Assembly (NCBI GenBank): GCA_016192985.1
Contig: JACPTC010000017.1
Coordinates: forward strand, 65,766 to 129,765
Origin: Candidatus Woesearchaeota archaeon
Lineage (GTDB): Archaea; Nanobdellota; Nanobdellia; Woesearchaeales; GW2011-AR4
Direction of reading: 5' to 3'
DNA: 64,000 bases
This document shows, piece by piece, positions 31,871 through 54,794 of this stretch. Each line of letters opens with the position of its first letter. Position 1 is the stretch's first letter. A program made the translations under genes and the position numbers. Under the pieces are notes generated by a model. That model was not told the origin of the DNA. It saw nothing but the letters and a program-made list of their open reading frames with translations, and did not search any database.

Positions 31871-32629
31871 ATGTCGCTATCCGTTGTTATGCCAGTCTAT
31901 AATGAACAGGAGATTATAGGTGAAGTTGTAAGGTCCGTTTACGCAAAAATAATAAACAAAATTCCTGACAGCGAATTCATAATAGTGAATGACTGCAGCA
32001 CAGACAATACCCTAAAAGTACTGAAAAAATTAAGCAAGGAGTTTAAAAAAATCAGGATAATAACTCCCGAAAAAAACGGTGGGCATGGCAAAGCCATACG
32101 CTTGGGCTTTCTAAATGCAAGGAAAGACTGGATATTTCATATTGATAGCGATAATGAATACGACCCTGCTGAATATTGGAAGCTTGACAAACTTAGGGAA
32201 AAATATGACATCATCCTGGGCCATAGGAAGAGTAGAAACGACCCACTGCACAGGCTTGTATTGACTAGAGTAGCGAGACTTATAAATTTCCTTCTTTTTG
32301 GCTCTTTAATCAAGGATACAAACAGCGCTTTTAAGCTGATTAACAGGAAAGCTGCGCAGCATATCATTAGCGTTCTTCCCGAAGATGCCTTTGCATATTC
32401 CATCCTAATGAGCATGATGGGTAGGAATTTGGGCTATAACATTATGGAGATTCCTGTTACCCATTTTGGCAGAAAGTCAGGAAAAAGACACTACCTTGGA
32501 TTGAAACTGGCAAAAGGCGTTATTAGGGGTGGCACAGACATGCTTTCATTGCGGCTCACAGCTTGGAAACTTCCAAACTCTGAATACAAGAAAGCAGAAG
32601 GAATAAAAAACAGTTATGGGCGTATTTAA
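31871..32629 (+). CDS. GT2-family glycosyltransferase
   Basis: LSVVMPVYNEQEII ... IIVNDCSTDNT ... IDSDNEYDP. Confidence 0.75.
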   Translation: MSLSVVMPVYNEQEIIGEVVRSVYAKIINKIPDSEFIIVNDCSTDNTLKVLKKLSKEFKKIRIITPEKNGGHGKAIRLGFLNARKDWIFHIDSDNEYDPAEYWKLDKLREKYDIILGHRKSRNDPLHRLVLTRVARLINFLLFGSLIKDTNSAFKLINRKAAQHIISVLPEDAFAYSILMSMMGRNLGYNIMEIPVTHFGRKSGKRHYLGLKLAKGVIRGGTDMLSLRLTAWKLPNSEYKKAEGIKNSYGRI

Positions 32630-32631
32630 CT

Positions 32632-33999
32632 CTATTGCACATAGCCAGAAGACATCACAGTTCCCCTGATCTCTTCTCCGGCGTCATTTTCCATGCCCCT
32701 TACCTCTGCAAATTTTACAATGTTCCTTTCTCCTATGACCCTAACAAGGTAATTCTTCCATTCAATAATCTGCTGAGGATTTTTGTGTAGGTATGCAGCG
32801 TCCTCCTCTTCCCTTTTGCCGATTGTGTGATAATATTCAAAAGTTGATTCCTTGTCTATGGGGAAGTCAAATCTTTCAGGATCATACCATATCTGGCATC
32901 CTGGCAATGGGACAAAAATATGCATTCCAAAGCTGTCTGCTGGAGCTTTTCTTATAAACTCGGCACTTTCCTCAACAGTCTCTCTTGTTTCTCCTGGCAG
33001 ACCAACAATCATCTGGGCCCTTACTTTGAGTCCCATCTCTTTTGCTAATTTTATGGCGTTCATATTTTCTTCAACAGTTGTCTGCTTTTCAATTATATCC
33101 AGTATCTTTTGGCTGCCAGTCTCAATTCCGTATGTGACCATTCTGCAACCAGACTGATACATAAGCCTAAACAGTTCTTTGTCGGTTCTGTCAGCTCTGG
33201 TCAGGCAATGCCAATCGTACAAAATGCCCTTGTCATGCAGTTCTTTCAACGATTTGCATAATTCAACTACCCTTTTGTCATCAACAATAAATGTGTCGTC
33301 AATAAAGTAGATCCTGTCAACTCCGTACCTTTTATGCACAAACTTTATCTCCTCAATTACCCTCTCAACAGTCTTGTACCTCATCCTTCTTTTGCTGACA
33401 GAGGCTTGAGCGCAGAATGTGCAGTCAAACGGGCAGCCTCTCGCAGTCATTAATTTTGCCTCTTTGTTGTTGGGCGTGGAGCCTATCACAAGGTTTGTGC
33501 CCATCTTGACATAATCATACATGTCAACCATGTCAAAGGCAGGCATAGGAATCTTATTTATATCTTCGACCAGGGGGCAAGTGATTATCCTTTCCCTTCT
33601 CCCTTTTACTATGTCAAGCATAGCCTGCTCTCCTTCCCCCTTGATTGCAATATCGGCTTTTGTATCCCTCAAAGTCCTCTCCGGCTCAACAGTCGGATGA
33701 AAGCCGCCTACTACCACAACAGCATCTGGCTGCCTTTTCTTTATCTTTTCAATTATTTTTATGACGATAGAATAATGCGGGGTCGCGCATGTTATGCCGT
33801 AAATATCCCCATCAGGAATAAACCAATATTTTTCAGGAAAACCTGCTAAATCACAAAAAGTCACATCAATATTATTTACTCTCAAATAAGACGCTATGTC
33901 CAAAAGCCCTAAAGGCGGTTGCTCCCTGTCTGAAAGAAGCCATGGGCTAGGGGGATTTATCAAAACAACTTTTGGCGAAACTGGCAATTCCATGCGCAC
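32632..33999 (-). CDS. B12-binding-domain radical SAM enzyme
   Basis: N-terminal cobalamin-binding-like domain, CxxxCxxC as ARGCPFDCTFCAQ, radical SAM core; 455 aa. Confidence 0.65.
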   Translation of the reverse strand: MRMELPVSPKVVLINPPSPWLLSDREQPPLGLLDIASYLRVNNIDVTFCDLAGFPEKYWFIPDGDIYGITCATPHYSIVIKIIEKIKKRQPDAVVVVGGFHPTVEPERTLRDTKADIAIKGEGEQAMLDIVKGRRERIITCPLVEDINKIPMPAFDMVDMYDYVKMGTNLVIGSTPNNKEAKLMTARGCPFDCTFCAQASVSKRRMRYKTVERVIEEIKFVHKRYGVDRIYFIDDTFIVDDKRVVELCKSLKELHDKGILYDWHCLTRADRTDKELFRLMYQSGCRMVTYGIETGSQKILDIIEKQTTVEENMNAIKLAKEMGLKVRAQMIVGLPGETRETVEESAEFIRKAPADSFGMHIFVPLPGCQIWYDPERFDFPIDKESTFEYYHTIGKREEEDAAYLHKNPQQIIEWKNYLVRVIGERNIVKFAEVRGMENDAGEEIRGTVMSSGYVQ

Positions 34000-34041
34000 A
34001 TAAGTTAAAGTTGCGATATTTAAACTTTTCTGAATTTTGGC

Positions 34042-42220: not shown

Positions 42221-42516
42221 AGCGGGAGGACGCGCTTGGAAATGGGCAAAGGCCATTGCAATCAGCTACCTTGCTTCAAGCTCCACTCTGTTACTCATAA
42301 GCACCGGCACAAAAGATTACCGCTGCTTAAGGTCAATTTTGCAATTGATTTCCTTCCGGACCTTACGGATTCTCAAAAGCACCGGTCCTACAAGGCAGAG
42401 CTTCTACGCCTGCAGCAAGACCAACTGCAACAACCCAAGCTGCTCTCCAAGCTTCACCGCGCCTAAGCACATCTGCGCTTACAGGAGAGTGCTAGCTTCC
42501 CGGCAAAGTCCTCCCA
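42221..42516 (-). ncRNA. Signal recognition particle RNA (7S/SRP RNA) candidate
   Basis: About 296-nt GC-enriched non-coding island. The 5' GGGAGGAC pairs with the 3' GUCCUCCC. Minus strand carries AAGGUCCGGAAGGAA, close to the SRP helix-8 GGAA-tetraloop motif. It carries an Alu-domain-like CCUGUAAGCGC...GCGCGGUGAAGC and an AGCAGCGG motif. A TTTAAAA box lies about 25 nt upstream and TTTTT immediately downstream on the minus strand. Confidence 0.5.
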
Positions 42517-44918: not shown

Positions 44919-45293
44919 GGCAGGGTTCGAATAAGCCGCCTTTTGTCAGGCCCTTAGTGCAATTACAAAATTGCGATAGCCTGTCTTAGCATTAAACTAA
45001 GCGTCTTTAATCAGACTTGCACCAGCCAGGACTCGCCGTTTCATCCATGCTGCAAAAACGTCCGTTGGTTATCTGAATCTTCTCGCGAAGATCTTCGCAA
45101 ACATCATCCTTGGCTTGCATGCGAATTTGCTCGCAGGCTAGCATTCATTCACAGCGGTCTCGTTTCTGAGCGGTTGCCGTCAATTACTAGACCTCACTTT
45201 CGCGAGTAGCTACGTTGGGTGGGCGGACTTTCCTCAGCGCTTCAACAGCAAAAACTCGCTGTATAGGCACCGAAGCTAAGTACTAACCCTGCC
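44919..45293 (-). ncRNA. rnpB: RNase P RNA (archaeal type A-like)
   Basis: Minus strand has CR-I-like GAGGAAAGUCCGCCCACC and CR-V-like ACAAAAGGCGGCUUA. The 5' GGCAGGGUU pairs with the 3' AACCCUGCC (P1). About 375 nt. TATA box TTTATATA about 26 nt upstream. Confidence 0.75.
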
Positions 45294-47542: not shown

Positions 47543-50500
47543 TTATTCCTTCTCTGTACATTTCTGCACATTCTTTCTGACTTTTTGTAGTTTGCAATTA
47601 CCATATTTTGAGCATTCTTTAGGCGTCAAATCAGAACATTGTACCTTTATACATTTCTCTAATTCTTTAGTTTGTGTCCATCCGCATTTTCCATCGTTTT
47701 GTCTTTCGCATTTGCCAAATTCTTGATAGCAAGCGTATTTTGGTTTGTATTCGCATGTAGTAGCCATTTTGTCCATGTAAGAAGCCTCTCCGCAAAGCTC
47801 GCCAGAGCAGCCTCCAGCTTTGCATGGCTCAGGTTTATCAACGCATTTTATCCTATTCTTTCTTGCTTTTATGACTTCGCAATTATCGTATTTTTGGCAC
47901 TCATCTATTATTAATTCAGAGCATTTTCTTTTTACGCAAGTGCCATCTTTGCAGCCGCTCGCACATCTAAACATATCTCTTTGCGGATTATTGTTGGCAT
48001 CGCAGGAAAGCTCGATTACATAACATTCTTTGCCGTCGCAATAATCCTTATGCTCATAATTGCCTGCAGCTACTTTTACTGCACATTTGTCAGGCACAGG
48101 AGACAAATCCCAGCCAGGGTAATTTGTTGCAAGTGTTCCTTTGGTATAGTATTCTTTTCCGCCATCGGAGTCCACACATTTAAGTGCAGATGTAATCTCA
48201 ATTTCTTTTGTTGCCTTAATGCCTTTACCACTTATTTTGTCGAAAGTTACCCTATATTTTCCAGTTTTTACGCTAGTGCCTTTGCAATCAAGCCTTGCTG
48301 GCCAATCTCTGGAATCGCATGCAGAATAATCCATTTGGTTCCATACTCCTACATATTTCTGTTCTCCCGGTTTGATAGGTATTTCTGATATAATGAATGC
48401 GCAATCAAAAACCGGCCCATGATTTCTTACCATATTCCCTTTCAAATCGGTAATTGTAATCAAGGGATTGCAAGTGCTGTCTGTTTCCTGGCCTGTTTTT
48501 GAGCTATAATATAAAATTTCATCCCCATTGTTCTTTACAAAAATATCTATCTTTTCTCCAGCGTAATAACTTTCTTTTTGCGTTACTACTTCTAACCCAT
48601 TTTGAGGACTGATACATGCCCCATTTGAGCAGCCTTTAGCTCCGCAACCTTGTATTTTTCTTTTAGCAACGCCATTTTCACAATAAAACTCAGTCATTTC
48701 GCTTAAAAGTCCATTTCCTAAATCCATTCCAGAACACTCATCCGCAACTTCTATGGCATCAAAAAAAGCGTCAGGAAGACCGTCCCCTTTCACCACTCCT
48801 GGCAAATTCGAAGCCTTAATGCTACCTTTAACGTAGTAATTTATTCCTTCATCAGAATCTGTGCAATTTCCTTCTTGCACTGCGACAAAGTCACTGCAAA
48901 CGCTATACTTGTTCCCATGGCAAAGCTGAAGTTTCTGCCCGTTGCTTATTCCAAAGAAGCCGCTTAATGGTTGCGTTACCTTGATGTTTTCTCCAGAAGT
49001 GCAGAAATAATTAGGTGTGTGCATAATGGCTTTTTTATCATTCAAAAGGTGTACACATACATCAAAGTTTTTGGAATAAGTAACTTCCAAACTAGAATCT
49101 ACTATTTTAATTGATTGAAGTCTGACTTCCTCTGCTTCACAACTGTCAGTCTCAAAAGAACCACTTGAAGTAAAGCCAACAACCAAGGGCTTTCTGTTAT
49201 GGCCTCTTTCGCGCACCCATTCAACTTTATACTCATAATTTTTTCCTTGCACGGCTTCATTCCAACTGACTGAACTGCTGTCAGGCTGTCCAGACCATTC
49301 AGCTCCTCCAGCGATAGTTATGTCAACGCCCTTCGATTTTTCGTCAAATGGCCAATTAATCAATTGCCATGAAATAACAACATGAGGCAACCCATTCTTG
49401 CAAGTGGCAGTAGCACTTGAAGTTGCTGAAGGTTCGGAAGATGCTTGGACTTCAATTGGAACGCTTCGAACCAGCTCTTTAAACCCATTCTCTCCATAAT
49501 AAATAAGTTCGTAAGTGCCTGGGTTTTTTGGAGCTTGCAAAGCGCCGGTTCCTGACTTTAATCCCTTAATATAAAAAAATCCAAATTTGTCATTCCATTG
49601 CGCTCCTTTTGGAGCAAAGGCAATGTAGTCATTTTCAAATGCAGTGCCTAAATTGTCCCAATAAACAGAAAGTTCCTCTCCTGCTTTTACATCTGTTTTT
49701 GATGGTTTTATATTAACAAGTGAAACAACTTCAAAACTTGTACTAACCACGTTATTATCTCTGTCAAACTCTTTTAAATTATTTGAAGGGTCAAGCTTTA
49801 CAATGAGATTTTTCATTCCTTGTGTTGGGAACGTAAATATAAAAGCAGACATACAACTCTCGCCGGGTTGTAAAACAGTTGATTTGCCGCACGTATCAGA
49901 CTTATGAATATTTTGAATTCCATCATCATTATTGGAGTAAATATACAGCGTAGGCGAAGCAACAGCAGTGCCAATATTAACAACTTTAAAAGCTACAAGA
50001 ACTTCCTTATTTGATTCTCTGATGGTCGGTGATATAAAAAAGCCTTCAGGCACGGCAAGGTCTGGAAGACTGGCTGAAAGACTGCAAGTAGCATCAACTT
50101 CAAAAGAATTCACGCCACATTTACCTGTGTCTTTGTCACATTTATTAATACATGACGTTTCAGCGTAACTCTTCCAAGTTCTGGATGGCTTACAAGAAGT
50201 TTCGCTACCCTGTAATTCACTATAACCATCATGACATGCCCATTTTGCGTACCTAAATCCCACTGGTTGTTGTTTTTCAACGCATTTTTTCCTATTCTTT
50301 CTAACCTTTTTAAGCTCGCAATTATCGTATTTTTGGCACTCATCTATTATTAATTCAGAGCATTTCATGCACCTATCATTTCTGCAGCCATTTGGACACA
50401 TATAACTTGTTTTTTTACCTACATCCCCTTCGCAATAATACTCAGTTAGTTCGTTGTCCAAGCAAACATCATAATCCTTAGCTTCTTTTTTTCCTAATAT

Positions 50501-50635
50501 TACGAAACCCTTTTCGAAATAATTTTTTCCACCATCAGAATCTGTACATATCTTGGGCGGTGGAGGCGGTGGAGCTTTTGAGTTTACTGGCTGCACAAAT
50601 ACGTAAACAAACAAAATTGACAATAACGACAGCAA
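47543..50635 (-). CDS. Large secreted cysteine-rich repeat protein (surface protein candidate)
   Basis: 1030 aa. Signal peptide followed by PPPPPPK. Three C(T/V)DSD(G/E)G..Y..KG modules. Two near-identical KCSELIIDECQKYDNCE modules plus a third divergent copy; many Cys. Confidence 0.6.
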   Translation of the reverse strand: MLSLLSILFVYVFVQPVNSKAPPPPPPKICTDSDGGKNYFEKGFVILGKKEAKDYDVCLDNELTEYYCEGDVGKKTSYMCPNGCRNDRCMKCSELIIDECQKYDNCELKKVRKNRKKCVEKQQPVGFRYAKWACHDGYSELQGSETSCKPSRTWKSYAETSCINKCDKDTGKCGVNSFEVDATCSLSASLPDLAVPEGFFISPTIRESNKEVLVAFKVVNIGTAVASPTLYIYSNNDDGIQNIHKSDTCGKSTVLQPGESCMSAFIFTFPTQGMKNLIVKLDPSNNLKEFDRDNNVVSTSFEVVSLVNIKPSKTDVKAGEELSVYWDNLGTAFENDYIAFAPKGAQWNDKFGFFYIKGLKSGTGALQAPKNPGTYELIYYGENGFKELVRSVPIEVQASSEPSATSSATATCKNGLPHVVISWQLINWPFDEKSKGVDITIAGGAEWSGQPDSSSVSWNEAVQGKNYEYKVEWVRERGHNRKPLVVGFTSSGSFETDSCEAEEVRLQSIKIVDSSLEVTYSKNFDVCVHLLNDKKAIMHTPNYFCTSGENIKVTQPLSGFFGISNGQKLQLCHGNKYSVCSDFVAVQEGNCTDSDEGINYYVKGSIKASNLPGVVKGDGLPDAFFDAIEVADECSGMDLGNGLLSEMTEFYCENGVAKRKIQGCGAKGCSNGACISPQNGLEVVTQKESYYAGEKIDIFVKNNGDEILYYSSKTGQETDSTCNPLITITDLKGNMVRNHGPVFDCAFIISEIPIKPGEQKYVGVWNQMDYSACDSRDWPARLDCKGTSVKTGKYRVTFDKISGKGIKATKEIEITSALKCVDSDGGKEYYTKGTLATNYPGWDLSPVPDKCAVKVAAGNYEHKDYCDGKECYVIELSCDANNNPQRDMFRCASGCKDGTCVKRKCSELIIDECQKYDNCEVIKARKNRIKCVDKPEPCKAGGCSGELCGEASYMDKMATTCEYKPKYACYQEFGKCERQNDGKCGWTQTKELEKCIKVQCSDLTPKECSKYGNCKLQKVRKNVQKCTEKE
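47841..47927. repeat. Intragenic direct repeat, copy A, within the Cys-rich gene
   Basis: About 87 nt, with a perfect 49-nt core cgcaattatcgtatttttggcactcatctattattaattcagagcattt identical to copy B. Confidence 0.8.
50280..50366. repeat. Intragenic direct repeat, copy B, within the Cys-rich gene
   Basis: Matches 47841-47927; encodes the repeated KCSELIIDECQKYDNCE module. Confidence 0.8.
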
Positions 50636-50753
50636 GACTAACTTTTTGATGTTTCCCGCCTCTTTTTATGAATATTTATATTCCTTCTATTTAATATTTT
50701 CCATATCTAATAAAATAAAAGTATTTATATTGCCCATTCCATTCAAGTTATGT

Positions 50754-51152
50754 ATGATAAGGATAATATTAGATACAAATTTTTTATTAATCCCGCTACA
50801 ATTTAGGGTAGATATATTCTCTGAATTTAACAGAATATGCAAATTTAATTACGAATTATACATTTTTGAGCAGTCAATTTGCGAGCTAAGTAACATCATT
50901 GAAGAGCAGTCAGGTCTAAATAAAAAAGCAGCACGGTTTGCACTAAAACTCATTAAATTAAAGAATATCAAAATAATCAAATCCGAAAAAATTGATGTTG
51001 ATTTGCTGATACTTGACAGCATAAACAAAGATGTAATAATAGCTACACAAGATGCTGAGCTTAAAAAGGAGCTGCTAAAGAAAGGTGCTTCTTTAATCAT
51101 CCTGAGGCAGAAAAAATACCTGCATTTGATTGAGAGAAAGCTTTATAAATGA
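50754..51152 (+). CDS. PIN-domain nuclease, Fcf1/Utp24-like
   Basis: RIILDTNFL ... IIATQDAELKKEL acidic PIN residues. Occupies the conserved archaeal position upstream of rpoE'. Start chosen at MIRIILDTNF. Confidence 0.55.
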   Translation: MIRIILDTNFLLIPLQFRVDIFSEFNRICKFNYELYIFEQSICELSNIIEEQSGLNKKAARFALKLIKLKNIKIIKSEKIDVDLLILDSINKDVIIATQDAELKKELLKKGASLIILRQKKYLHLIERKLYK

Positions 51153-53696: not shown

Positions 53697-54794
53697 CTAT
53701 ACCTCCAATTTGGTCCAAATAATTTTCTGGCCAATTTTGTTTGATTTTGTTATTAAACCTTTCTTATATAAATCTTTTAATGGCATGTTTACATTACTTT
53801 TTCTAACGCCTAATTTGAAAATTAATTCTTCTGTAGAAAGATTTTCCGATGAAAGCAAGTCAATAATTTCTTCCTTTGTTTCGTTATTTTTTCTTCTTAC
53901 ACCATTATAATTATTTCTAATTTCAATTAATTTTGATAGTTTATTTAACTTCGTGGGATGATTAAATCCAATTACTTGAAAATATTTTTCAATCTCTTTT
54001 GGTTTTATTGTTAAATAAAAATATGATTCTGATTTTTCAGCTATTTGAACATCGCTAAAATCTAATTTTCCTGTTAGTAATTCTTTTATAGATAATAAAA
54101 TATTTTTATTAGTTGAATAAATACTTATCTTATGATTCAAATCTACATTTCCTTCGTCATCAGCAAAAGCCCTGATTAGAGCTACGGAAAATTCTATTGG
54201 CAAATCTTTAATTCTTTCCGGGATTATGGCATTTCGTGTTTTGAAATCAATATTATAAAAGAATTTAATTAAGTCCGCAATAACTCTTGGGGACCTTAAA
54301 TCGTAACAGCCTGAATTTCTATAATAGATTTTTTCATCTACATCACCAAAAACAGATGAAATTAGTTTTTGGAAATTATCTATTAAGTCTTTATTTGAAT
54401 TTGTGTATATAGGAATATTATTCTTGTTGACGCTTCCATCTCCAATTAAATGTGCAATCAGGGCAAATAACTCTGGACTTTCGATTATCGGTAGTTTAGG
54501 ATTTTTAACCGCTAAGCTCGAATTAGGGCCTTTATAGGTGATAACATTGCTTTCAATTTCATTCCAATCAAGACCTCTTTTATTAACTATTTTTTTAATA
54601 TGGACTAAAGGTATGAATAGATTTAATTTTTTCCAAAAATGAATTACTTGAGGAGATACAGACAAGAAATTTGCTAATTTTTTTAACGAGCCAAAATAGT
54701 TTATACTATCATCTATAAATTTATCATTATCGCTAAGTAATATCCTAATCCTATCTGCTGGAAAATCTTTCAAATGAAATTTTTTAATTACCAT
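53697..54794 (-). CDS. Free-standing LAGLIDADG homing-endonuclease-like protein with flanking HTH domains
   Basis: Two LAGLIDADG motifs (LIAHLIGDGSV, LIRAFADDEGNV), an N-terminal HTH-like region and a C-terminal winged-helix-like region. Start codon directly abuts the P0 stop (TAAATG) and its stop lies 3 nt before the P1 start. Confidence 0.7.
   Translation of the reverse strand: MVIKKFHLKDFPADRIRILLSDNDKFIDDSINYFGSLKKLANFLSVSPQVIHFWKKLNLFIPLVHIKKIVNKRGLDWNEIESNVITYKGPNSSLAVKNPKLPIIESPELFALIAHLIGDGSVNKNNIPIYTNSNKDLIDNFQKLISSVFGDVDEKIYYRNSGCYDLRSPRVIADLIKFFYNIDFKTRNAIIPERIKDLPIEFSVALIRAFADDEGNVDLNHKISIYSTNKNILLSIKELLTGKLDFSDVQIAEKSESYFYLTIKPKEIEKYFQVIGFNHPTKLNKLSKLIEIRNNYNGVRRKNNETKEEIIDLLSSENLSTEELIFKLGVRKSNVNMPLKDLYKKGLITKSNKIGQKIIWTKLEV

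What the first reader, a model, noticed from the sequence alone, without database searches (positions are those of the whole stretch)
47543..50635. 1030-aa secreted cysteine-rich protein built from repeated modules, with perfect 49-nt intragenic DNA repeats
After a signal peptide and a PPPPPPK linker, the protein carries three C(T/V)DSD(G/E)G..Y..KG modules. It also has two near-identical KCSELIIDECQKYDNCE...KCV modules plus a third divergent copy (CSDLTPKECSKYGNCK), and dozens of cysteines. Two modules are encoded by DNA repeats that are 100% identical over 49 nt (47878-47926 and 50318-50366). That implies recent duplication or gene conversion and a potential for recombinational length variation. 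It is a candidate surface adhesin or S-layer-associated protein, which would be relevant to cell-cell attachment in an episymbiotic lifestyle.
Basis: seen in the sequence. Interest (0 to 1): 0.55.

Follow-up and report, generated by a model that had tools for sequence, protein, structure and literature searches.

The report
Mosaic cysteine-rich secreted DPANN archaeal protein
This gene from a tiny groundwater-type archaeon (Woesearchaeota) encodes a large exported protein made of shuffled, probably disulfide-locked modules, one of which was recently copied within the gene; it is an ordinary member of a poorly studied class of surface-type proteins.

Summary
ORF 47543-50635 (-) encodes 1030 aa with 58 Cys, three CxDSDGG modules (A) and three CSxLxxxEC modules (C). 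It is the only exact repeat of at least 20 nt in the window.

The protein equals NCBI HYY70_02275, a hypothetical protein of Candidatus Woesearchaeota. It has no full-length orthologue. It is a mosaic of about 12 modules, each recurring in other proteins (4200 representatives in all), mainly from DPANN archaea:
- A x3, B, C x3.
- CARDB.
- A SKICH-like sandwich (D), plus E, F and G.
- An eight-cysteine-cluster domain (H, PF27854/TIGR04289).

Thirteen aligned relatives join A directly to B. Here C1 sits exactly in that linker, so C1 is a recent intragenic copy of C2, later homogenised over 50 nt.

Confident AlphaFold models of A and B match no solved structure. B shows a borderline, ordered sequence match to the copper-binding domain of amyloid precursor protein, which fold search did not confirm.

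Best reading: an exported, disulfide-stabilised binding or adhesion-type protein with no recognisable anchor. An adhesin or S-layer role is not shown. Interest is modest.

The parts
47543..50635 (-). Whole ORF, 1030 aa plus stop. Identical to NCBI HYY70_02275, a hypothetical protein of Candidatus Woesearchaeota (annotated there as 1023 aa from a start 7 codons downstream).
50579..50635 (-). Residues 1-19: hydrophobic N-terminus (putative Sec signal peptide ending VNS|K). The start codon is uncertain. In-frame IKK lies just upstream, with no ATG, GTG or TTG start.
   Evidence: the only 19-mer with Kyte-Doolittle score above 1.6; no signal-peptide predictor was available
50552..50578 (-). Residues 20-28: KAPPPPPPK proline linker.
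   Evidence: read directly from the sequence
50363..50551 (-). Module A1 (residues 29-91), short type, 6 Cys. Consensus CTDSDGGxNYYxKG...DxC...LxEYYC...YxCPxGCxxGAC. Predicted to be all-beta.
50270..50362 (-). Module C1 (residues 92-122), 4 Cys, spacing C-x7-C-x5-C-x11-C. Predicted helical hairpin. Sits as an insertion in the A-B linker.
50075..50269 (-). Module B (residues 123-187), 6 Cys. Consensus GFRxAxWxCYDG...TSCKxSxxWxxYAExxC...KCGVNSFSV..EC. Predicted strand-strand-helix-strand. Borderline sequence likeness to the APP copper-binding domain.
49727..50074 (-). CARDB domain (residues 188-303), 2 Cys.
   Evidence: PF07705, 32.3 bits against a cut-off of 22.7, residues 191-298
49430..49726 (-). 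Module D (residues 304-402), no Cys. Beta-sandwich with a DWIAxxPxG...PGxYExRY motif. SKICH/HECW_N-like below threshold.
49139..49429 (-). Ser/Thr linker plus module E (residues 403-499), 2 Cys. One full-length match (P0021) and a few partial overlaps among the 164 collected proteins.
48866..49138 (-). Module F (residues 500-590), 4 Cys. Consensus YSKNFxTCAHL...NxFC...KLCHGNNxxxCS. Tandemly repeated in proteins of CPR bacteria (Peregrinibacteria, Patescibacteria).
48611..48865 (-). Module A2 (residues 591-675), 6 Cys, divergent copy with a long insert.
48182..48610 (-). Module G (residues 676-818), 4 Cys. Almost no relatives. Weak Ig-like hit (Big_14, E = 0.006).
47930..48181 (-). Module A3 (residues 819-902), long type, 8 Cys.
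47831..47929 (-). Module C2 (residues 903-935), 4 Cys. Probably the ancestral copy: the A3-C2 junction is shared with P0002, and the C2-H junction with P0027, P0030 and P0042.
47645..47830 (-). Module H (residues 936-997): eight-cysteine-cluster domain (PF27854 / TIGR04289 type), 8 Cys.
47546..47644 (-). Module C3 (residues 998-1030), 4 Cys, divergent copy. The protein ends ...KCTEKE with no anchor.
47833..47926 (.). DNA repeat copy in C2 (94 nt). The exact 50-nt tract is 47877-47926.
50272..50365 (.). DNA repeat copy in C1 (94 nt, 90% identical). The exact 50-nt tract is 50316-50365.

Best explanation
The gene encodes an exported, multi-domain extracellular protein of a Woesearchaeota (DPANN) archaeon.

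After an N-terminal signal sequence and a proline linker, about 112 kDa of chain is laid out as beads on a string. There are eight small cysteine-knot modules (A x3, B, C x3, H) and five beta-sandwich modules (CARDB, SKICH-like D, E, F, G).

All 58 cysteines fall into modules in even numbers, so up to 29 intramodule disulfides could stiffen the protein outside the cell. There is no catalytic domain and no recognisable anchor. The most likely job is therefore binding, as an adhesion or matrix-type protein that is either released or held on the envelope non-covalently.

The family evolves by module shuffling. In this gene a roughly 100-nt C module was copied from the A3-C2-H region into the linker of a conserved A-B didomain. 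A 50-nt tract of the two copies was later homogenised by gene conversion.

Shown: the anatomy, the module families and their spread, the insertion, and the conversion signature.
Inferred: export, disulfides, and the binding role.
For: - ORF and composition.
- Cys per module: 6, 4, 6, 2, 0, 2, 4, 6, 4, 8, 4, 8, 4, total 58.
- The only hydrophobic 19-mer is at residue 1.
- CARDB scores above the Pfam cut-off.
- H is PF27854: it is precomputed for the identical protein P0001 and for five H-only relatives. Close H relatives hit TIGR04289. [quoted passage not shown]
- The exhaustive search found 4200 representatives at E <= 1e-3 and no full-length orthologue. Best hits each cover single modules (map).
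- Named relatives are Aenigm-, Pace-, Woese-, Nano- and Altiarchaeota. CPR bacteria share F, and Sorangium shares H.
- Most of the relatives read in full begin with signal-like N-termini.
- Relatives fuse the same modules to S_layer_C, VWA, a metalloprotease-like region, a phosphoesterase, Kelch repeats and a PG-binding domain.
- Thirteen aligned relatives join A to B without any C module in the linker, and the query alone carries C1 there.
- The A3-C2 and C2-H junctions are shared with relatives.
- Conversion signature.
- AF2 model of residues 25-190: pLDDT 89, with A and B above 90.
Against: - No signal-peptide predictor was available. With the called TTG start the n-region has no basic residue.
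- No anchor of any kind was found, so surface retention is unproven.
- No binding partner, expression or proteomic evidence exists.
- The redox state of the habitat and the organism's ability to form disulfides are unknown.
- CARDB's adhesion label is a database name, not a tested function.
- The C module in the model reaches only about pLDDT 70.
Confidence: 0.6

Rival explanations
1. It is the S-layer protein, or a stably integrated S-layer component, of the cell.
For: One A-module relative (P0004) carries an S_layer_C domain above the Pfam cut-off. The protein is large and probably exported.
Against: The query has no S-layer family hit. It has no C-terminal transmembrane or sorting signal. 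From general knowledge, 5.6% Cys and a mosaic of small knots are atypical for lattice-forming S-layer proteins. No orthologue was found in the exhaustive search or in the two nucleotide collections scanned, whereas a core envelope protein would be expected to be conserved.
Confidence: 0.08
2. It is a secreted effector or enzyme carrier aimed at a host or at polymers. One of the unassigned modules (E or G) would be catalytic or inhibitory, and the knots would serve as targeting modules.
For: Relatives attach the same modules to a metalloprotease-like domain (P0021), a phosphoesterase (P0033) and Kelch/glyoxal-oxidase-like repeats (P0029). There is no anchor. E and G have almost no relatives.
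Against: No catalytic family hit anywhere in the protein. G gives only a weak Ig-like hit.
Confidence: 0.15
3. It is a metal-binding or sequestering protein. The cysteines would act as ligands rather than form disulfides, and module B would be a copper-binding domain like that of APP.
For: The B profile matches APP copper-binding domains. Two B-module relatives gave weak metallothionein-family hits.
Against: Under the alignment, the copper ligands His147 and His151 of APP (PMC5281630) correspond to Ser151 and Lys155 here, and Tyr168 falls in a deleted loop. Even Cys counts per module and confident compact folds fit disulfides. Fold search did not retrieve the copper-binding domain.
Confidence: 0.05
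4. The repeat and the module arrangement are an assembly artefact, or the ORF is a decaying pseudogene.
For: The sequence comes from a metagenome-assembled genome, and the gene has no orthologue.
Against: The frame stays open for 1030 codons. The repeat is only 50 nt exact within 94 nt, which by general knowledge is shorter than typical reads. Its flanks are unique. The extra copy is an exact, in-frame, whole-module insertion at a domain boundary.
Confidence: 0.03
5. The two 50-nt direct repeats act as a recombination switch. An in-frame 2439-nt deletion would give a 217-aa short form (A1-C-H-C3) in part of the population.
For: The repeats are direct, exact and in frame, 813 codons apart.
Against: There are no population data. 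50 nt is a short substrate, and no deletion variant was found because no related contig was found at all.
Confidence: 0.07

Closest known systems
Unnamed family of modular cysteine-rich hypothetical proteins of DPANN archaea (for example FJY76_02275 Aenigmarchaeota, HYT26_01555 Pacearchaeota, KY331_04535 Woesearchaeota, KKD48_01890 Nanoarchaeota)
   Same: They share the A modules (often 3-6 per protein), the A-B didomain, N-terminal signal-like sequences and 5-9% Cys.
   Different: No two architectures are alike. The query alone among the 14 aligned sequences has a C module between A and B. It lacks the C-terminal CYPFGYR...CENNFEC...WF..LF module seen in P0003, P0004, P0007 and P0008. None of these proteins has been studied.
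Eight-cysteine-cluster domain proteins (NCBIfam TIGR04289; Pfam PF27854; Thermococcales TIGR04292 CGP-CTERM proteins such as secreted TERMP_01543)
   Same: Module H has the eight Cys and the GCSGxxC / CGW motifs. PF27854 is recorded for the identical protein. A member of the family is experimentally secreted.
   Different: The query has a single H copy embedded in a mosaic. It has no CGP-CTERM tail and scores 25.5 bits against the 200-bit cut-off of TIGR04292. I found no tested function for the domain; one paper speculates a role in biofilm formation.
CARDB-containing cell-surface proteins (Pfam PF07705)
   Same: Residues 191-298 score above the gathering threshold. Relatives P0003 and P0009 also have CARDB.
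   Different: CARDB is one of about 12 modules here and says little about the ligand.
Copper-binding domain (CuBD) of the amyloid precursor protein E1 region (Pfam PF12924; PDB 2M05, 2FJZ, 1OWT)
   Same: There is an ordered sequence match over the helix and the last strand, including the Cys pair that aligns with Cys144-Cys174. The B profile scores E = 1.5e-4 against APL-1 and 0.012-0.022 against human APP. Eleven of 24 B modules hit PF12924, and 0 of 300 column shuffles reach the real scores.
   Different: The query's own B gives no PF12924 hit. The copper ligands are absent. The strand order differs (strand-strand-helix-strand here; strand-helix-strand-strand for CuBD, from memory of PDB 1OWT). 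Foldseek does not retrieve the CuBD. The host is an archaeon, whereas APP is, to my knowledge, confined to animals.
Eukaryotic mosaic extracellular proteins built from small disulfide modules (EGF, Sushi/CCP, TSP repeats) - functional analogy only
   Same: Small even-Cys modules are strung with Ig-like domains and rearranged by module shuffling and duplication.
   Different: No homology was shown. Weak Sushi-protein hits to the first half of B (E = 0.03-0.5) are at chance level.

Membership tests
CARDB (PF07705) | Profile score above Pfam's gathering threshold | tested here: met
   32.3 bits against 22.7, residues 191-298, profile positions 2-100 of 101.
Eight-cysteine-cluster domain (PF27854 / TIGR04289) | Eight conserved Cys with the family motifs in about 60 aa | tested here: met
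   C938, 943, 948, 961, 969, 976, 984 and 995 align with the invariant Cys columns of 40 relatives; GCSG and CGW motifs are present.
Eight-cysteine-cluster domain (PF27854 / TIGR04289) | Hit to the family profile | tested here: met
   PF27854.1 is precomputed for the identical protein P0001 and for all five H-only relatives. The local NCBIfam scan gave no TIGR04289 hit for the query at E <= 1, but relatives about 50% identical over H do hit it.
TIGR04292 CGP-CTERM-anchored Cys-rich protein | Full-length equivalog score of at least 200 bits and a CGP-CTERM sorting tail | tested here: not met
   25.5 bits. The C-terminus is ...KCTEKE with no hydrophobic tail.
APP copper-binding domain (PF12924) | Profile hit above threshold | tested here: not met
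   The query's B gives no hit at E <= 10. Eleven of the 23 other B modules give hits, the best at E = 4.3e-4; Pfam's cut-off for this family was not shown, and none of the B-bearing relatives carries a precomputed PF12924 annotation.
APP copper-binding domain (PF12924) | Significant, order-dependent sequence similarity to solved copper-binding domains | tested here: inconclusive
   B profile against PDB: 2m05 E = 1.5e-4, 2fjz 0.012, 1owt 0.022. hhalign against human APP: probability 4.8%. Column-shuffle control: 0 of 300 reach the real scores.
APP copper-binding domain (PF12924) | Copper ligands His147, His151, Tyr168 | tested here: not met
   The aligned residues are Ser151 and Lys155, and the Tyr168 region is deleted. 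Ligands are as given in PMC5281630.
APP copper-binding domain (PF12924) | Same fold | tested here: not met
Archaeal S-layer proteins | S-layer family domain | tested here: not met
   No such hit in Pfam or NCBIfam. Only relative P0004 has S_layer_C.
Anchored archaeal surface proteins (transmembrane or archaeosortase-type C-terminal signal) | C-terminal hydrophobic segment or sorting motif | tested here: not met
   No 19-mer with hydropathy above 1.6 except at residue 1. No NCBIfam sorting-signal hit.
Sec-exported protein | Tripartite signal peptide (basic n-region, hydrophobic h-region, cleavage c-region) | tested here: inconclusive
   The h-region and a VNS|K c-region are present. There is no basic residue after the called TTG start, and IKK lies in frame just upstream. 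No predictor was available.
Diversity-generating retroelement target (TR/VR pair) | Adenine-specific mismatches between repeats and a nearby reverse transcriptase | tested here: not met
   The mismatches are of mixed types, and no RT-like ORF is in the window.
SKICH / HECW_N-type beta-sandwich (module D) | Profile hit above threshold | tested here: inconclusive
   Seven of 26 D modules hit HECW_N (best 2.3e-5) and five hit SKICH. PDB profile hits to CALCOCO2 and HECW2 are at E = 0.06-0.24.

The most novel reading that the evidence does not exclude
Module B, which recurs next to module A in extracellular proteins across DPANN archaea, is a true distant homologue of the copper-binding domain of the animal amyloid precursor protein family. 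It keeps the helix, the last strand and the Cys144-Cys174-type disulfide but lacks the copper site. To my knowledge that would be the first prokaryotic relative of an APP ectodomain module.
Probability: 0.25. Interest if true: 0.6.

Novelty: new member of a known kind. Interest (0 to 1): 0.35.

Why it matters
DPANN archaea are thought to live attached to other cells, and their surface proteins are the obvious candidates for that contact. Almost none of these proteins has been characterised.

This gene gives a clean module dictionary (A, B, C, D, F, H) for a protein class with thousands of members. It supplies two confident structure models with no solved counterpart. It also captures module shuffling in progress: a module newly inserted into a conserved didomain and then homogenised by gene conversion.

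The possible link between module B and the APP copper-binding domain would interest people who study the origin of animal extracellular domains, but it needs confirmation. None of this changes current ideas; the value is descriptive.

Tried and rejected
- **Close relatives in nucleotide collections:** scans of GTDB genomes and JGI metagenomes found none. The exact protein is not in the gene-position index.
- **Synteny:** the loci of relatives P0019 and P0003 share no neighbours with this window.
- **Profile search for module C:** With flanks it found nothing in 5.8 billion proteins, so C is rare. It was seen only in P0002, P0021, P0027, P0030, P0042 and P0115.
- **Structure prediction with a fragment alignment:** MAFFT stacked all fragments on module B, so that alignment was discarded. 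Natural A-B segments plus A fragments worked.
- **PDB sequence searches:** the whole protein and the profiles of C-H-C and F gave nothing; the D profile gave only sub-threshold Ig-like hits, best E = 0.008.
- **DGR hypothesis for the repeat:** rejected.
- **Shine-Dalgarno argument for an upstream ATC start:** dropped, because such motifs are rare in this genome, 7 of 43 genes.
- **Paralogues in the window:** none.
- **Literature:** no paper mentions the CTDSDGG motif or prokaryotic relatives of the APP copper-binding domain.
Full report
**1. Observation**

- The minus-strand ORF 47543-50635 is real: TTG start, 1030 codons.
- It has 58 cysteines, 5.6%.
- It begins MLSLLSILFVYVFVQPVNS-KAPPPPPPK.
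- The three CxDSDGG modules start at C30, C591 and C820.
- The KCSELIIDECQKYDNCE module occurs at residues 91-107 and 904-920. A divergent copy (QCSDLTPKECSKYGNCK) is at 999-1015.
- The exact DNA repeat is 50 nt (47877-47926 = 50316-50365).
- It lies in a 94-nt, 90% identical direct repeat, and a third copy is 63% identical.
- It is the only exact repeat of at least 20 nt in the 64-kb window, direct or inverted.
- Seventeen identical codons for the shared peptide have P = 8e-6 under the gene's own codon usage.

**2. Source and setting**

- The protein is identical to NCBI HYY70_02275, a hypothetical protein of Candidatus Woesearchaeota, on a 131,650-nt contig. NCBI starts it 7 codons later.
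- The window carries archaeal RNase P RNA and SRP RNA.
- The neighbours are housekeeping genes: NAC, a THUMP methyltransferase, a PIN_9 protein and Rpo7.
- There is no paralogue in the window.
- GC content is unremarkable.

**3. Anatomy**

Mapping 560 domain-level matches from 164 related proteins onto the query, together with family scans, gives this layout (residues; Cys count):

| Part | Residues | Cys | Note |
|---|---|---|---|
| Signal | 1-19 | 0 | |
| Pro linker | 20-28 | 0 | |
| A1 | 29-91 | 6 | |
| C1 | 92-122 | 4 | |
| B | 123-187 | 6 | |
| CARDB | 188-303 | 2 | 32.3 bits against a cut-off of 22.7 |
| D | 304-402 | 0 | |
| E | 403-499 | 2 | |
| F | 500-590 | 4 | |
| A2 | 591-675 | 6 | |
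| G | 676-818 | 4 | |
| A3 | 819-902 | 8 | |
| C2 | 903-935 | 4 | |
| H | 936-997 | 8 | |
| C3 | 998-1030 | 4 | |

- Every module has an even Cys count, which is what intramodule disulfides predict (inference).
- The only hydrophobic stretch is the N-terminus.
- The C-terminus (...KCTEKE) has no transmembrane segment or sorting tail.

**4. Relatives**

- The exhaustive search of 1.84 billion representatives found 4200 proteins at E <= 1e-3 and 754 at E <= 1e-10. It found no full-length orthologue. The best hits each cover one or two modules.
- Nothing close exists in the GTDB genomes or JGI metagenomes scanned.
- Named relatives come from Aenigm-, Pace-, Woese-, Nano- and Altiarchaeota.
- Module F is tandemly repeated in proteins of CPR bacteria (Peregrinibacteria, Patescibacteria).
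- Module H occurs in Sorangium and other Myxococcota.
- H is a catalogued family:
  - All five H-only relatives, and the identical protein P0001, carry Pfam PF27854.
  - Relatives about 50% identical over H hit NCBIfam TIGR04289, the eight-cysteine-cluster domain.
  - One such protein was found only in the culture supernatant of Thermococcus barophilus (PMC10667668).
- D is a SKICH/HECW_N-like sandwich, below threshold.
- G gives a weak Ig-like hit.
- A, B, C, E and F reach no Pfam model. A, C, F and H match no PDB sequence.
- The same modules are fused elsewhere to S_layer_C, VWA, a metalloprotease-like region, a phosphoesterase, Kelch repeats and a PG-binding domain.
- Most of the relatives read in full start with signal-like sequences.

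**5. The repeat is a recent module insertion plus conversion**

- A followed directly by B is a recurring didomain: 12 natural cases were found, most with linkers of 0-9 residues and one of 40.
- In an alignment of 13 such relatives, the query alone has about 30 extra residues between A and B, and these are exactly module C1.
- By contrast, the A3-C2 junction is shared with P0002 (45% identity over residues 820-943).
- The C2-H junction is shared with P0027, P0030 and P0042.
- So C2 is the resident copy, and C1 was copied into the A1-B linker (inference).
- All nine mismatches of the 94-nt repeat lie in its first 44 nt (P = 6.7e-4). This fits an older copy whose other 50 nt were later homogenised by gene conversion, rather than one uniform recent duplication.
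- The mismatches are not adenine-specific and there is no reverse transcriptase in the window, so this is not a diversity-generating retroelement pair.
- Module C is rare. It was found in only six other protein clusters, mostly in two or three copies per protein. A profile search of 5.8 billion proteins found no more.
- Because the two exact copies are direct and 813 codons apart, recombination between them would give an in-frame 217-aa form. That could not be tested here.

**6. Structure**

- An AlphaFold2 model of residues 25-190 used natural A-B segments and A fragments as the alignment. Its mean pLDDT is 89.
  - A is all-beta (pLDDT above 90).
  - C is a two-helix hairpin at about pLDDT 70 (the alignment gave it no depth).
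  - B is strand-strand-helix-strand at pLDDT 95-98.
- B modelled alone gave pLDDT 93.
- Foldseek against PDB found nothing below E = 0.9 for A-C-B and nothing below 2.8 for B. BFVD gave nothing.

**7. A lead: module B and the APP copper-binding domain**

For the link:
- A profile of 24 B modules hits C. elegans APL-1 (2M05, E = 1.5e-4) and human APP copper-binding domains (2FJZ at 0.012, 1OWT at 0.022, and several E1 entries).
- Eleven of the 24 B modules give hits to Pfam PF12924, the best at 4.3e-4. No other family is hit by more than two.
- The match depends on residue order, not composition. Real scores are 25.6 and 18.1 bits, against maxima of 12.5 and 10.6 bits in 300 column shuffles.
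- The alignment pairs C148 and C173 with APP Cys144 and Cys174, a known disulfide (PMC5281630).

Against the link:
- The query's own B gives no PF12924 hit.
- The human APP scores are no better than chance-level Sushi-protein hits.
- hhalign probability against human APP is 4.8%.
- The copper ligands His147 and His151 align with Ser and Lys, and Tyr168 falls in a deleted loop.
- The fold search did not retrieve the domain.

I therefore treat this as a lead, not a membership.

**8. Most likely working**

The protein is exported, folds into a string of disulfide knots and beta-sandwiches, and acts by binding, as an adhesion or matrix-type protein. It is either released or held non-covalently, since no anchor is present.

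- Shown: the architecture, the module families, the insertion, and the conversion signature.
- Inferred: export, disulfides, and the binding role.
- Rivals (S-layer protein, effector or enzyme carrier, metal binder, assembly artefact, recombination switch) are weighed in their own sections.

**9. Verdict**

The duplication or conversion reading is supported. The adhesin or S-layer reading is plausible but untested.

This is a new member of a large, uncharacterised class of DPANN extracellular mosaic proteins. It is descriptive value with one speculative lead.

Noticed in passing
window 47543-50635 (protein residues 1-1030): N-glycosylation sequons are strongly depleted: 1 N-x-S/T against 7.3 +/- 2.5 expected from shuffles (P = 0.005). 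Relatives split into sequon-free proteins (P0002, P0009, P0018, P0019) and sequon-rich ones (P0007, 26 per 1000 aa).
   Followed up: partly
window 50636-50665: The reading frame stays open for 10 codons upstream of the called TTG start (KEAGNIKKLV), with no ATG, GTG or TTG. IKK would supply the basic n-region that the signal peptide lacks, via an ATC at 50648-50650. A TATA-like TATAAATA sits at 50673-50680. NCBI uses a start 7 codons downstream instead. Shine-Dalgarno motifs are rare in this genome (7 of 43 genes).
   Followed up: partly
window 44919-45293 (-) and 42224-42515 (-): Archaeal RNase P RNA (114.6 bits) and archaeal SRP RNA (99.8 bits) lie a few kb from the gene. No tRNA gene is found in the whole 64 kb.
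   Followed up: no
window 53697-54794 (-): A free-standing 365-aa ORF with a LAGLIDADG_3 domain and a C-terminal ArsR/MarR-type HTH lies directly next to the ribosomal P1 protein gene.
   Followed up: partly
window 50646-51152 (+): The PIN_9 domain starts at residue 40 of this ORF, so the true start is probably MIRIIL near 50754. That leaves a divergent intergenic region of about 118 nt shared with the cysteine-rich gene.
   Followed up: partly
relatives P0020 (Peregrinibacteria) and P0041 (Patescibacteria): Module F (YSKNFxTCAHL...KLCHGNNxxxCS) is shared between this DPANN archaeon and CPR bacteria. It is repeated about ten times in P0020 and fused to Kelch repeats in P0029, which suggests cross-domain exchange of surface modules.
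   Followed up: partly
L002 7125-8446 and 8369-10587: About 2.5 kb from the gene for relative P0003 lie two RVT_1 (reverse transcriptase) ORFs, and an eRF1 gene interrupted by an intein with a LAGLIDADG domain.
   Followed up: no
relatives P0003, P0004, P0007, P0008 (C-termini): A conserved C-terminal cysteine module (C..C.L.N.CYPFGYR...CENNFEC.SN.C..G.C) ends in a short WF..LF hydrophobic tail and may be an anchor. The window protein does not have it.
   Followed up: no
window 32001-34000: GC content rises to 0.418 against about 0.36 elsewhere.
   Followed up: no
module C (residues 92-122, 903-935, 998-1030): The first predicted helix is acidic (SELIIDECQKYDNCE) and the second strongly basic (KKVRKNRKKC; RKQRQRC in relatives). 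Carriers read in full have two or three copies spaced between other modules.
   Followed up: no
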